A stretch of DNA of 64,000 nucleotides, taken from the NCBI GenBank assembly GCA_951406725.2, contig OX597828.1, forward strand, positions 69,998,001 through 70,062,000, given 5' to 3'. The notes below the pieces were generated by a model. That model saw only the letters and a program-made list of their open reading frames with translations, was not told where the DNA came from and searched no databases. This DNA comes from Octopus vulgaris (Eukaryota). Made by a program: the position numbers and the translations under genes. Positions 7,785 to 50,500 of the stretch are shown here, piece by piece (position 1 is the first letter of the stretch; every line of letters starts with the position of its first letter).

Positions 7785-7945
7785 GGGAGAATTCACGAAA
7801 AAAACAAAAGACGAAGACAGGTGGTGTAGAAAACAAACAGATATATTAGTATAACGCTCGGGAATTGAAAAAGTCTTTTACGTTTCGAGCCTACGCTCTT
7901 CCACAGAAAGAAACAAGAGAAAAAATGTGTGTAGTGGCTACCGAT
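7785..7945 (-). mobile_element. Short TA-associated element with minimal hammerhead-like motif (copy 1 of 4)
   Basis: Shares gggagaattcacgaaa...gacaggtggtgtaga...tattagtataacgctc with copies at 11019 and 50253 and partly 14560. Motif at 7874-7911. Confidence 0.8.
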
Positions 7946-8015
7946 CTCTCTCTCTCTCTCTCTCTCTCTCTCTCTCTATATATATATATATATATATATA
8001 TATATATATATATAT

Positions 8016-9988
8016 GTAACATCAACATCAACTTCACCAAATAGTTAATTGAATCCCAGAATCTGCCGATACTCCCAACGTGAGAAACTATGTCTGTTGC
8101 GTGACTGTCCTTTAACTCATCTTCCGGGGACCCGACGCACTAACAGAAATGGGGCTCCAAGCCAACACACAAACCACAGTAAAAACTGGTCCAGTCTTTT
8201 CAGGAAGACACAAAAACAACAACAACACAACAAAAGCGGAAACGACAACCTTATCCAACAGTGTAACAACACCTCCAGTCAAAAACTGCTCCAAAATTCT
8301 TTTTGAGCCATGTTGAATCTGACAGAAGTGACACAGAAAGCTCTTTTAGCTATCACTCAATACCATCCTATGCTATTACCCCAGTGCACCAACCCCACCA
8401 CCACCACCACATTGCTGTCCCTAGCACACGATCAGAAAAAAGCCCCCCGCAACAGTCAAAACCTGCCACTACACTAACCTCTACATTTCTACTCGATGCC
8501 CAAGGTGTCAATCCCTCCACCGATGCACAGAAATGGAAGATCCTATTCATTGAGGATTGGGTTGGTAACTATCAACACCACACCCCTTTCTTCATTCTTA
8601 CCAAGACCCACTTTGACAACTTCCACTTGGAAGCCGAAGTGAAAGTGAAGAATTTCACAACCATCCGCACAGACTGAGTCAACAGATGGAAGGGTGGACC
8701 TGCCATTTTCCTACATGATCCTTTTTTGGTAGATGGAAATATGACATTCTCCAATGGCTACTGTGAATCGATCACCGTGAACAACAAAGCCAATGACCTG
8801 ATAATAGTAGTTGGGATGTATAGGCCACCTCAAACACCCATACTCTGCTTTAATGAATGCCTCAAAAGCATTAAGTGATATATTCAAGAGCGCCATTCTA
8901 ATAACACAATTATGATGGGAGATTTTAATCTACCCTGTGTTGATCGGTCTACAGACAGTTTGAAACCAGGCACTCCCACCTCAACTACTGACAAAGAAGC
9001 AGTAGAGTTACTTCTCGATTTTATGAACGCGTTTTTCTTATCCTAACTTGTCCTTGCATCAACAAGATATCAGGAGTTTTTAGACCTTGTGTTTAGTAAC
9101 CACACTAACACAATACACAATATTTGAGTGGAAAAAAACCCCCCTTCTTTCAGATCATGACATGGTTCTCTGTAACCTGAGATTCCACCAGCCAAAAGCT
9201 AACCCTAGTGACCTCTCTCCAGTCCATCCATTTGATGCCATGGATCTCTATGATGCCGACTGGGACGCAATCATAAACGATTTATCCCATGTTGACTGGT
9301 CTTTCACACATGCACACACCTCCTCCAGCATCAAAATATCTTAGCAGATCTTTGTAGACACTGTCACAAACATATGTGCTAAACACGCACCATCAAGACC
9401 TGTGATGAAAGGGCAGAATTCCCCAAAACAGAGAAACGATTATCAGAAAAATGAAAAGAACAAACAAAAGAAATTAACAAACTAAAATACTGCCAACAGA
9501 CACACATAAATTCGACAGCTATCACCCTGCTCGAATAAAAAAATATAACCTCCAACAATGCATGAAGATCATCATGCAAAGAAAGGCTGTGGAGAAATGG
9601 AGCGTTGGGAGAATCAAGCACAACCCCAAACAAGGTCACTGTCTCCACTGTTGACCCTCTAAATGATGAAAATGGCAATCTCCAAGATAATGCCAAAACC
9701 AGGAGTGATATACTGCAGAAACAGTACTGCTCTGTTTTTAGCAATCCTGTTGTGGCCGATCTGGACTGTATCAGTGATGTTGATCCTCAACGCACTCTGT
9801 CGGATATAACGTTTGGTTCAATAAACGAAATTACACACAATTCAGCAGCAGACCCTAATAGGTTCCCTGCTTGTGTCCTCAAGATGTGTCGACACCAACT
9901 TGCATCTCTTCTTGCTGGTCTGCGGAGGAACTCACTGGATGCTGGTTACCTTCCTGTCCCAGTTTTCAAAAAGGGAAACAAGTCCCTT
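8016..9988 (+). pseudogene. Decayed CR1/L2-group LINE: ORF1 Cys/His finger, APE endonuclease and start of RT
   Basis: PRICRYS..CLLRDCPLTHLPGT; APE motifs VVGMYRPP, MMGDFNLP, LDLVFSN, LLSDHDMV; pre-RT SAADPNRFPACVLK...VPVFKKGNKS. Many stops and frameshifts; truncated by (TGTA)n. Confidence 0.85.
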
Positions 9989-11018
9989 GTATGTATGTAT
10001 GTATGTATGTATGTATGTATGTATGTATGCATGCATGTATGTATGTATGTATGTATGTATGTATGTATGTATGTATGTATGTATGTTTGCATGTATGTAT
10101 GTGTATGTATGTATATATGTATGTATGTATGTATGTATGTATGTATGCATGCATGCATGCATGTATGTATGCATGTATGTATGTATGCATGTATGGATGT
10201 ATGTATGGATGTGTGTATGCATGTATATATGTATGTGTATCTATGTGTGTATGTATGTACGTGTGTTTGTATGCATGTATGCATGCGATCACTTGGAAGT
10301 CTGACATGTGGCACCCACATGTGCATCTGTACAGACAACGTCGATTTGGTGGAGAAAACGATCTAATGTACATAAACAATCCTCTACGCTGGTTGTTAAG
10401 CAAGGAATTGCCGAAACCCCATTTCACGTTTACGACGCGATCGTCCATCATACACCAACGCATTATTCTAAAATCGTGATGTATATTTACCGCACAATTT
10501 TATTTTATCATCATTAGGAAAGCAATCGAACTCCATCTATAATTATATATGATTCAATTTACTCCATTAATATATTTATATAATTATCTCTATAATTGAA
10601 TTGCATTTTCTATATCTAAATTATTTATACGTGTCTGTTTAACAAATATATGCACGCATATTTTATACACACACATATTAATTGCTGCTAGGGACACCGT
10701 ATTTCGTTTTGCAACCATAATATATAACCAAATACATTGAAGGTTTATAAGTCAATGCCGCGTCCTACGCTGTGTTAGCAGTGCGATTTAAATTACTTTT
10801 AAGTTATTACCTCTACAGATTTTCAATGCAATTTAGAGCTAGCATCATAACTGTCACAACTGAATCTAAATTTTATAGCAAATTTGTGGAGATAACTTAA
10901 AAGTTACATACATACATATATGTATATGTATATGTATATGTATATGTATGTATATATATATATATATATATATATATATATATATATATATATATATATA
11001 TATATATATATATATATT

Positions 11019-48155: not shown

Positions 48156-48750
48156 TTGTGTGTTAGCAAGGGCATGTTGTGTGCTAGGGCGGGCATGTTG
48201 TGCGGTAGCAAGGGTATCTTGTGTGCTAGGGTGGGTATGTTGTGTGCTAGGGCGGGCATGTTGTGCGGTAGCAAGGGTATCGTTGTGTGCTAGGGAGGGC
48301 ATGTTATGTGCTAGGGCGGGCATGTTGTGTGCTATGGAGAGCATATTGTGCGGTAGCAAGGGCAGGCATGTGTGCTAGGGAGGGCATGTTGTGTGCTGGG
48401 GCGGGAATTTTGTGCGGTAGTAAGAGCATGTTGTGTGCTAGGGCGGGCATGTGTGCATGTTGTGAGCTGGGGCGGGCTTGTTGTGTGCTAGGGCGGGCAT
48501 GTTGTGCGATAGCAAGGGCATGTTGTGTGCTAGAGAGGGCATGTGCGGTAGCGAGGGAAGTTTGTGTGCTAGGGCAGGCATGTGTGTTAGGGTGGGTACG
48601 TTGTGTGCTAGGGAGGGCATGTTGTATGCTAGGGAGGGCATGTTGTGTGTTAGGGAGGGCGTGTTGTGCGGTAGCAAGGGCATGTTGTATGCTAGGGAGG
48701 GTGTGTTGTGCGGCAGCAAGGGCATTTTGTGCGCTAGGGAGGGCATTTGT
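48156..48750. repeat. G-rich 21-bp minisatellite (~28 diverged units, two unit types)
   Basis: gttgtgtgctaggg(c/a)gggcat interspersed with gttgtgcggtagcaagggcat; 7-aa periodicity (LAHNMPS). Confidence 0.9.
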
Positions 48751-50252
48751 GTGGTGTGTAGTATGGTAGAGGTGATGATGGGGGTAGTAGTAGTAGTGGT
48801 GATGGTGGTGGTGGTGGTAAGGGAAGTGATGGTGGTGGTGAAGTCGGTGGCGGTGGTTTTTCGGTATTAAAATGTTTATCTGTTGTTAGCAGCTTTGTGT
48901 ACCAGGGAGAGGAATTCGTATGTGCGTGAAGCGGGGGTGGGGGTGGACTCATGCTTCCGTCCCTCTCCTTCTGTCTCTTTAGTTATACATCTACTGTTTT
49001 CCCATCCTGGGTCTCCATAATTTCAGTCTGTGTGTGTGTGTGTGTGTGTGAGTGACGATTGGACTGGGGAGGGGAAGGGGAGTATATAGAACGGTGGGGA
49101 TGGGGGAAATTGAAATTCGTTTAATACTAAAAACGCATTGTTAATAGCATGTATTTGTTAATATACATATATGTATACGTACACACACACACACATATAT
49201 ATATACATACATACATACATACAGACATACATACATGTATGCATACGTACATGTATGTATATACATACATGCATTCATATATGTGTGTGTGTGTGGATAG
49301 AGAGAGAGATATCGATGCATACAGACACACATACATACATATACATACACACACATACATACACATGCATATATACATAAATATTCATGCATGCATGTGT
49401 ACATGCGCACATACATATATTTGTGTGTCTGTACACATATATGCATATGCAGACTCACACACATACACACACACACACACACACACACACAAGTAATAAA
49501 TATCGAATTCAGTGAGGGCACGGCAACCTCCATCTTCTTTAAACAATAGTAAATATTCCTCAAATCGCATTTTCCTCTCTCATAAAAGAACAGGTTTAAA
49601 AACGTAATTCTGAAAAATATTATCGACGTGATCATGGCTGCTGCATCAGGGTTTGTTCCATGAGGATTAACCAAGTACTAGACAACGACACTAACAACAA
49701 CAGCAACAACGGGGATATATTTGCGCGCGAAGTCTATCAGAAAGCTCCATATATTTTCTGTAATGAGCGCCTGATATTTCATCGTACCCAGTTTCGTTCA
49801 TTTTATTCGATTTATTTTATATTACAGCTCTAGATTTAGTGTAATTTGATATTACATTGATTTTATCGAACATTCTGTCTGGCTTTATATCAAAGTATTG
49901 TCTACTAGAATTAGAAAGTATTTATTTATGTTATTATTTTTGATAAAACTGTATCCGTGTTTTGGTTTAAATGTTAAATTCGGATGGTCATGCATTCTTT
50001 CAATGTAAGGTTCTATAACCAAAGATACACGTTTTGAATTTGACAGTAGCATTATATAAACTCGCTGCTGGATTCATTACACCCGTATGTAATTGCATTT
50101 TCCTGTTGCTCGTAAGCTGTATCGTTTTATGTCCAGGTCAAAAATATGTGGATTTATCTTTATGTATGTAACCTACCAATTTTAAATTGTCATTTCGATG
50201 TGTTTGTGTGTGTGTTCGTATGTGTATATATATGTGTGTGTATATGTATATA

Positions 50253-50500
50253 GGGAGAATTCACGAAAAAAACAAAAAACGAAGACAGGTGGTGTAGAAC
50301 ACAAACAGATGTATTAGTATAACGCTCGGGAATTGAAAAAAATCTTTAACGTTTCGAGCCTACGCTCTTCCACAGAAAGGAGCACAGAAAGAAACAAGGG
50401 GAGTAGAGTCCAGAGTAATCCATAGGTCGGAGAGGTGCAACCGGAGTATAAAAAATCCAAAAGAGAATCCGTAAAGGGTAGAAAGGTAGAAAGTCCAGTG
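50253..50500 (-). mobile_element. Short TA-associated element with minimal hammerhead-like motif (copy 4)
   Basis: Motif 50343-50380, minus strand: ccttt-CTGTGGA-a-gagc-gtag-gctc-GAAAC-GTT-aaaga. Confidence 0.8.

What the first reader, a model, noticed from the sequence alone, without database searches (positions are those of the whole stretch)
7785..50500. Four-copy TA-associated mini-element family carrying a stem-III-less hammerhead motif with a fixed A6U change
Seen: copies at 7874-7911, 11106-11143, 14606-14643 and 50343-50380 (all minus strand) read (t/c)cttt-CTGT(G/C)GA-a-gagc-N4-g(c/t)tc-GAAAC-GTH-aaa(ga). Variation falls mostly where a hammerhead tolerates it: position 7 (G/C), the stem II loop, a G-U wobble, and H17 = A, C, A, U (never G). 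Copy 2 has one stem II mismatch and copy 3 a shortened stem I. Stem III is reduced to the palindrome ACGT, and all copies abut (TA)n. Established: helix-III-less hammerheads occur in PLEs and are proposed to act as dimers; A6 is normally nearly invariant. Inference: an abundant non-autonomous PLE/retrozyme-like family with an unusual core.
Basis: partly seen in the sequence, partly recalled or inferred. Interest (0 to 1): 0.74.

Follow-up and report, generated by a model that had tools for sequence, protein, structure and literature searches.

The report
Penelope retrotransposon hammerhead with fixed A6U
These four repeats are tail-end stubs of a young, very abundant Penelope-like jumping gene whose hammerhead RNA motif has one core letter changed (A6U) in all its subfamilies, a change predicted to slow self-cutting; the shapes of its genomic copies suggest that stubs are copied from uncut RNA while full-length copies likely come from RNA circles.

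Summary
The four motifs are real. They are not a separate non-autonomous family but 5'-truncated 3' ends (pLTRs) of an autonomous Neptune-type Penelope-like retrotransposon: 4,478-bp unit, ~1,080-aa RT/GIY-YIG ORF, U6 hammerhead in both pLTRs, young copies 99.5% identical in protein. Genome-wide, U6 has 18,928 exact matches versus 356 for A6. U6 is consensus in 11 of 11 subfamily clusters; in the 28-nt motif only N7 and H17 change (never to G), while 46 of 109 flank columns do. A sister lineage (14,037 matches) independently gained U4C. No excess of copies starts at the cut site (about 1%); stubs pile up at a likely transcription start 50-90 nt upstream, so their templates were uncut. Full-length copies never stop there (0 of 23 versus 14 of 24), as expected for circular or multimeric templates. 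Best reading: a slowed but still selected ribozyme; cleavage is untested. Minimal PLE hammerheads are published; A6U was not found in my paper searches (Lunse 2017 unread), but this scan noted A6U before in other genomes.

The parts
7785..7946 (-). Copy 1: pLTR stub (G7 subfamily), 3' end on (TA)n, 5' end in the pile-up zone upstream of the motif
7876..7909 (-). Minimal hammerhead motif, U6 G7 A17; predicted cut between 7879 and 7878
11018..11179 (-). Copy 2: pLTR stub between two (TA)n runs, small internal deletion near its 5' end
11108..11141 (-). Minimal hammerhead motif, U6 G7 C17, private stem II mismatch
14545..14662 (-). Copy 3: older, more decayed pLTR stub of an early U6 subfamily, deletion in its 3' part
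14608..14641 (-). Minimal hammerhead motif, U6 C7 A17, private loop and stem II changes
50253..50400 (-). Copy 4: pLTR stub (G7 subfamily)
50345..50378 (-). Minimal hammerhead motif, U6 G7 U17
50402..50500 (-). 99-nt piece of the element's 5'UTR, which in other loci follows the pLTR 3' end and stops at a second fixed 3' end; placed upstream of the stub here, likely by a template jump

Best explanation
The four copies are 5'-truncated pLTR stubs of an autonomous Neptune-type Penelope-like retrotransposon, and their A6U hammerhead is likely a slowed but still selected ribozyme. Shown: the parent element, its ORF, its tandem pLTR-ORF-pLTR form, (TA)n targets, fixation of U6 and constancy of the rest of the motif across subfamilies. 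Inferred: RNA starts at an initiator-like site 70-85 nt upstream of the motif; the element's protein nicks (TA)n and primes on an internal AUAUAU about 105 nt behind the cut site; on linear, uncut RNA it runs about 190 nt to the RNA 5' end and leaves a stub like these four. Inferred, weaker: occasionally the two pLTR hammerheads of one transcript pair through ACGU, cut and are rejoined into a 4.5-kb circle, which is copied round more than once to give full-length, more-than-unit copies. Slow cutting would be favoured because every cDNA must be copied through the motif.
For: Parent: intact ORFs with U6 motif in both pLTRs, RVT_1 and GIY-YIG hits, DKG, YIDD and CX4CxxC linker, 19 young ORFs 99.5% identical, unit 4,478 bp. 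Fixation: position 6 U 18,928, C/G 584, A 356; in 137 copies picked by flank sequence alone U133 C3 A1. Selection: across 11 subfamily consensuses 0 of 32 core and stem columns change versus 46 of 109 flank columns (Fisher p 6e-7); N7 changes 5 times, H17 4 times among A/U/C. Sister lineage: 14,037 matches, 71 of the first 100 with C4, nested among U4 copies; low-copy families keep CUGANGA with varied stems (213 matches). Uncut templates: at most 30 of 3,411 young copies fit a start at the cut site, no more per junction than a control window; 1,541 copies lose element sequence just upstream of the initiator-like A versus 819 that continue (16 of the first 100 of the 1,541 are an intact insertion variant). 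No wall on the second pass: 0 of 23 ORF-linked copies versus 14 of 24 first-pass copies stop at -100..-50 (p 8e-6). A6 changes lower but do not always abolish activity (A6C; PMC3088659 section 8, PMC7151607 part 1); the anole PLE hammerhead needs protein and is dispensable for insertion in vitro (PMC11167929 parts 1-2).
Against: No cleavage was shown and no cut-site footprint exists. Single changes in the CUGA turn gave low activity in a mutational scan (PMC9901934, passages). Loop II is as invariant as the core although a hammerhead does not need that, and no stem II covariation occurs inside the U6 lineage, so part of the constraint may be non-catalytic; a 14-column invariant run also occurs downstream. 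Flank columns are T-rich and not independent, which inflates the contrast, and the clustered set included copies picked by core patterns. Four H17 changes without G are too few to prove avoidance. The absent second-pass wall is also explained by read-through from multimeric arrays (a 3.3-unit array exists) or by template jumping. The start site is inferred from copy ends, not from RNA.
Confidence: 0.58

Rival explanations
1. The U6 motif is catalytically dead; its fold or sequence is kept for another job (binding of the element's protein, RNA stability, or a promoter element downstream of the start site), and full-length copies come from read-through of tandem arrays or template jumps.
For: No cut-site footprint; loop II frozen and no covariation; insertion in vitro does not need cleavage in the anole PLE (PMC11167929 part 2); two lineages tolerate different core changes; the motif lies just downstream of the inferred start site.
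Against: The only two motif columns that change are N7 and H17, the two positions that catalysis leaves free; G8, A9, G12, A13, A14 and the A15.1-U16.1 pair never changed in any subfamily; ORF-linked copies lack the 5' wall.
Confidence: 0.3
2. One reading: a non-autonomous retrozyme- or SINE-like family that multiplies from its own short transcripts using PLE proteins.
For: Most copies are 160-190 nt with shared ends; mini tandem arrays of 467-492 bp with one motif per unit exist; retrozymes are reported to derive from pLTRs (10.64898/2026.07.22.740005, part 1).
Against: Subfamily-diagnostic changes of the stubs, including the deletion shared by copies 1 and 2, also occur in long copies with 3'UTR or ORF; each mini array has its own junction; the shared 5' end is explained by run-off.
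Confidence: 0.08
3. A6U is a neutral hitch-hiker fixed in one founder; the motif's constancy reflects too little time rather than selection.
For: One founder event explains fixation; the branch on which U6 arose is unresolved.
Against: Flanks took 89 changes along the same path and the GIY-YIG region of old copies is only about 65% identical to the young protein, while 32 motif columns took none.
Confidence: 0.04

Closest known systems
Minimal type I hammerheads (min-HHR) in pLTRs of metazoan Penelope-like elements (Cervera and de la Pena 2014, PMC4209133; main text parts 1-3 of 4, supplement part 2 of 3 read)
   Same: No helix III, palindromic 15.2-16.2, extra nucleotide between 9 and 10.1, G10.1-C11.1, short stem I, both pLTRs, mostly solo truncated copies.
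   Different: U at position 6; every row I saw of their Fig. S3 alignment and its consensus has A6. Their only core variant in the text read is U3-A8. Stem I is only 3-4 bp.
Neptune-clade EN+ PLEs (Craig et al. 2021, PMC8557442; 12 passages read)
   Same: C-terminal GIY-YIG, CX2-5CxxC linker, DKG motif, partial tandems, inverted pieces, (TA)n bias.
   Different: Clade placement rests on motifs only; Nematis shares the linker and no reference tree was built.
PAc, Poseidon element of the green anole (Frangieh et al. 2024, PMC11167929; parts 1-2 of 4 read)
   Same: Internal reverse-transcription start with two sites, AT-rich targets, unprocessed RNA as main template.
   Different: Here the main start coincides with a built-in ATATAT that matches the (TA)n target, and the ORF starts about 700 nt behind the motif instead of overlapping it; canonical A6 status of PAc not checked.
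Natural A6C hammerhead of phage Bcep176 (PMC3088659 section 8; PMC7151607 part 1 of 4)
   Same: Natural change at core position 6 with low but detectable activity.
   Different: A single phage motif with C6 and Mn2+ preference, versus U6 fixed in tens of thousands of retroelement copies.
Metazoan non-LTR retrozymes (PMC7229834, passages; 10.64898/2026.07.22.740005, part 1 of 5)
   Same: Short hammerhead-bearing tandem units; the 467-492-bp arrays derived from this element resemble them.
   Different: The window copies are solo stubs of a coding element, with a minimal rather than canonical hammerhead.

Membership tests
EN+ Penelope-like element | Single ORF with RT and C-terminal GIY-YIG | tested here: met
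   P0002, 1,079 aa: RVT_1 over cut-off, GIY-YIG E 0.0065 below cut-off; YIDD 618, YIG 887; homologues carry the same Pfam set
EN+ Penelope-like element | Partial-tandem pLTR-ORF-pLTR structure | tested here: met
   12 of 20 long-ORF loci have two pLTRs with the motif, 4,478 bp apart
Neptune clade | CX2-5CxxC linker before the endonuclease and microsatellite targeting | tested here: met
   CSRPRCRTC at 836; 120 of 150 flank-anchored copies have (TA)4+ just behind the end, window background 0.20
Neptune clade | Phylogenetic placement versus Nematis and Poseidon references | not tested
   No named reference proteins were available from the calls
Minimal PLE hammerhead | Core CUGANGA...GAAA with A15.1-U16.1 and H17 | tested here: not met
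   Met at all positions except A6, which is U in 133 of 137 unbiased copies; works-like claim stands, strict consensus does not
Minimal PLE hammerhead | Extra nucleotide 9/10.1, G10.1-C11.1, palindromic stem III remnant | tested here: met
Minimal PLE hammerhead | Covariation in stem II | tested here: inconclusive
   None inside the U6 lineage; other A6 families of this genome show different paired stems
Minimal PLE hammerhead | Self-cleavage as a dimer | not testable with these tools
   No raw RNA reads were offered; no cut-site footprint in DNA
Non-LTR retrozyme | Non-coding tandem repeats with a hammerhead per unit | tested here: not met
   Window copies are solo and belong to a coding element; only rare derived arrays fit

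The most novel reading that the evidence does not exclude
Successful Penelope lineages repeatedly detune their hammerhead (A6U here, U4C in the sister lineage) so that most RNA stays an intact template while rare cutting and rejoining makes the circle from which complete, more-than-unit copies are made; the contrast between walled stubs and unwalled full-length copies would be a genomic record of that circular intermediate, and U6 a naturally active core variant.
Probability: 0.3. Interest if true: 0.75.

Novelty: new variant of a known kind. Interest (0 to 1): 0.5.

Why it matters
What hammerheads do in Penelope-like elements is open: they are universal in several clades yet cut poorly and were dispensable for insertion in vitro. 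A young, intact element with a core change fixed through a long subfamily series, a sister lineage with a second core change, and two copy classes that differ in their 5' ends make the question directly testable with natural alleles. It also shows that CUGANGA descriptors miss what may be the two largest minimal-hammerhead families of this genome.

Tried and rejected
Rfam scan of the window: 410 matches at E up to 5, the 150 listed were microsatellite-driven miRNA-type or UTR hits, none a hammerhead. Cut-site footprint: tested in the youngest subfamily (87 matches: by hand 15 indels, 72 truncations, 30 in the cut-compatible class of three possible junctions, versus 19 in a two-junction class among 50 control matches) and in the window's subfamilies (70 matches, about 25 of them indels, against an estimated 3,500 or more copies): no excess. 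One search was out of register and only counts 3,307 intact copies. Start site at unit position 292: rejected, 4 stop versus 162 continue. 'Conformational lock' idea that A6U and U4C stabilise one inactive helix: rejected for U4C (pairing probability 0.01); A6U shifts the local register with short flanks (0.02 to 0.98) but ranks 5-38 of 48 changes and the effect fades with longer flanks. A6 sub-subfamily ancestral to U6: 7 A6, 11 C6, 1 G6, 81 U6 in the first 100 of 892 oldest-type copies, A6 rows scattered in an unresolved tree: undecided. The 781-aa GIY-YIG family is another element, about 29% identical, without this motif. RNA: no RNA holder listed; contigs of guessed-RNA runs gave no ends or joints; contigs under four other organism labels hold the pLTR but the difference table missed even N7, so position 6 there is undecided. 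No ORF remnant of the element in the window. Papers: Lunse et al. 2017 is not held and could list A6U; searches for A6U, CUGUUGA, CUGUNGA and U4C with hammerhead terms found no report of A6U in a retroelement. Supplements of Craig 2021 were not opened and those of the bioRxiv preprint are closed; both may list such cores.
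Full report
Observation. The four minus-strand motifs are as described: U at core position 6, an extra A between 9 and 10.1, a 4-bp stem II, ACGT in place of stem III, and 3-4 bp of stem I. A profile from genomic copies finds these four and no others in the window. The window lies in a 2.8-Gb, microsatellite-rich animal genome, likely an octopod (my inference from size, contig number and repeats; not from a call).

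Abundance and position 6. With stem II and the GAAACGT strand held fixed, position 6 is U in 18,928 places, C or G in 584 and A in 356; reversed controls are 0. H17 is G in 172 of the 18,928. To avoid picking by the core I took 150 copies by downstream flank only; 137 hold the whole core, and in them position 6 is U133, C3, A1, N7 is A20 G36 C31 U50, and H17 is A91 U38 C6 G2.

Parent element. Long copies carry a GIY-YIG ORF end 0.6-0.9 kb upstream of the motif. A search with 286 aa of it scored 136 of 20,676 candidates, many with identical scores. Of 20 loci picked for long open frames, 12 have the motif in two pLTRs 4,478 bp apart. The 1,079-aa protein has RVT_1, a weak GIY-YIG hit, DKG, YIDD and a CX4CxxC linker; 19 young ORFs are 99.5% identical over 571 aa. 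These are the marks of a Neptune-type PLE in Craig et al. 2021 (passages); no reference tree was built. The window copies are therefore stubs of an autonomous element.

History of the motif. Clustering 294 copies on flank columns gave 14 clusters; 11 have at least 10 members, with mean divergence from 0.15 to 0.01, and all 11 have U6. Along the spanning tree of their consensuses, 0 of 32 core and stem columns change against 46 of 109 flank columns (p 6e-7; 0 of 12 canonical core columns, p 0.003); N7 changes 5 times and H17 4 times, among A, U and C. Against a purely catalytic reading: loop II is also frozen, there is no stem II covariation, flank columns are T-rich and not independent, and part of the clustered set was picked by core patterns. 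A sister lineage with the same stem II and a 3-nt loop has 14,037 matches, A6 throughout by design of the pattern, and C at position 4 in 71 of the first 100; C4 copies nest among U4 copies (rough support). Low-copy families keep CUGANGA with various paired stems (213 matches). When U6 arose is unresolved.

Ends of the copies. 3' ends fall about 105 nt behind the cut site, where the full element itself reads ATATAT before going on into its 5'UTR; 120 of 150 copies have (TA)4+ there against a background of 0.20. Priming by target-template microhomology is my inference. A second 3' end about 165 nt further on explains the extra piece of copy 4. 5' ends were mapped for 140 of the 150 copies: 26 of 38, 14 of 25 and 28 of 77 in the three anchor groups end about 50-100 nt upstream of C3 (coordinates differ by up to about 12 nt between references). 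The upstream edge is an initiator-like CAGTC/CATTC (label recalled): 1,541 copies have non-element bases just before its A and 819 continue; 16 of the first 100 of the 1,541 are an intact insertion variant. At the cut site, by contrast, at most 30 of 3,411 young copies begin, no more per possible junction than in a control window, and about 45 of an estimated 3,500 or more in the window's subfamilies. A circle has no such wall, so stubs were copied from linear RNA through an uncut motif. The lead for both tests came from earlier scan notes.

Full-length copies behave differently. Among ORF-linked young copies that pass the 5' motif by 50 nt, 0 of 23 end in the pile-up zone; they end 175 to 1,405 nt upstream or run off the locus (3 of them), against 14 of 24 first-pass copies (p 8e-6; I dropped one duplicate locus and the inner unit of one array). 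Their two pLTRs differ by 0-6 letters in 11 of 12 cases, 16 in one, and one array has 3.3 units at 99.7-100%. Their templates had no end at the start site: a cut-and-rejoined circle, as proposed by Cervera and de la Pena 2014, a read-through multimer, or efficient template jumping. I cannot separate these.

Mechanism. Shown: identity, parent, fixation, constraint pattern, end distributions. Inferred: start site, priming, slow cleavage, circle. Published context: A6C is natural and weakly active; changes in the CUGA turn gave low activity in a scan; PLE hammerheads cut slowly even as dimers; the anole PLE motif needs protein and is not needed for insertion in vitro. Because every cDNA must pass the motif, weak cutting is plausibly favoured. 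I put slowed-but-functional at 0.58 and dead-but-structural at 0.30.

Novelty. Minimal PLE hammerheads are known. All rows I saw in the 2014 alignment have A6, and five searches found no A6U in a retroelement, but Lunse et al. 2017 could not be read. This scan has noted A6U in other genomes (unchecked AI notes), so the variant is not unique to this DNA, and recurrence would itself be of interest. Verdict: new variant of a known kind, interest 0.5.

Noticed in passing
G000 genome-wide; L434-L453: Sister pLTR lineage with 14,037 exact matches and a derived U4C core change (71 of first 100); ORF linkage not shown here.
   Followed up: partly
L518 (G000:C8:18.60 Mb), L501, L502, L508, L515: Retrozyme-like mini tandem arrays of 467-492 bp (one longer) with one U6 motif per unit; junctions identical within an array, different between arrays, four joining to about 68 nt upstream of C3.
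   Followed up: partly
pLTR, about 60-75 nt upstream of C3: Four-codon upstream ORF right after the inferred start site; stop at codon 5 in 105 of 120 copies, TAG 94, TAA 6, TGA 5. Cut off in the window copies.
   Followed up: partly
L520-L521 (G000:C6:117.39 Mb): Array of 3.3 full units, 99.7-100% identical: candidate source element or rolling-circle product.
   Followed up: partly
L144-L161: Second young PLE family with a 781-aa open frame, an upstream 479-aa ORF and no standard hammerhead by my pattern.
   Followed up: no
G000 genome-wide; L414-L433: Low-copy canonical minimal hammerhead families with different paired stem II sequences, 213 matches.
   Followed up: no
L025, L035, L044, L047, L092: Inverted, tail-to-tail or head-to-head pLTR pairs typical of PLE insertions.
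   Followed up: no
window 16007-16245, 18408-18650, 21573-21809, 33401-33568, 42640-42870, 52370-52610, 54873-55470: A ~240-bp interspersed repeat with many copies at about 90% identity, SINE-like.
   Followed up: no
window 14020-14280, 26108-26318, 28254-28483, 43240-43456, 58857-59253, 62490-62980: A second, older interspersed repeat family at 70-80% identity.
   Followed up: no
window 46222-47625 and 48155-48753: Tandem arrays with 46-bp (about 31 copies) and 21-bp (about 28 copies) units.
   Followed up: no
window 9566-10000 (+): Open frame that looks like a LINE reverse-transcriptase-region fragment (label recalled).
   Followed up: no
window 53613-53824: A 212-bp imperfect palindrome.
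   Followed up: no
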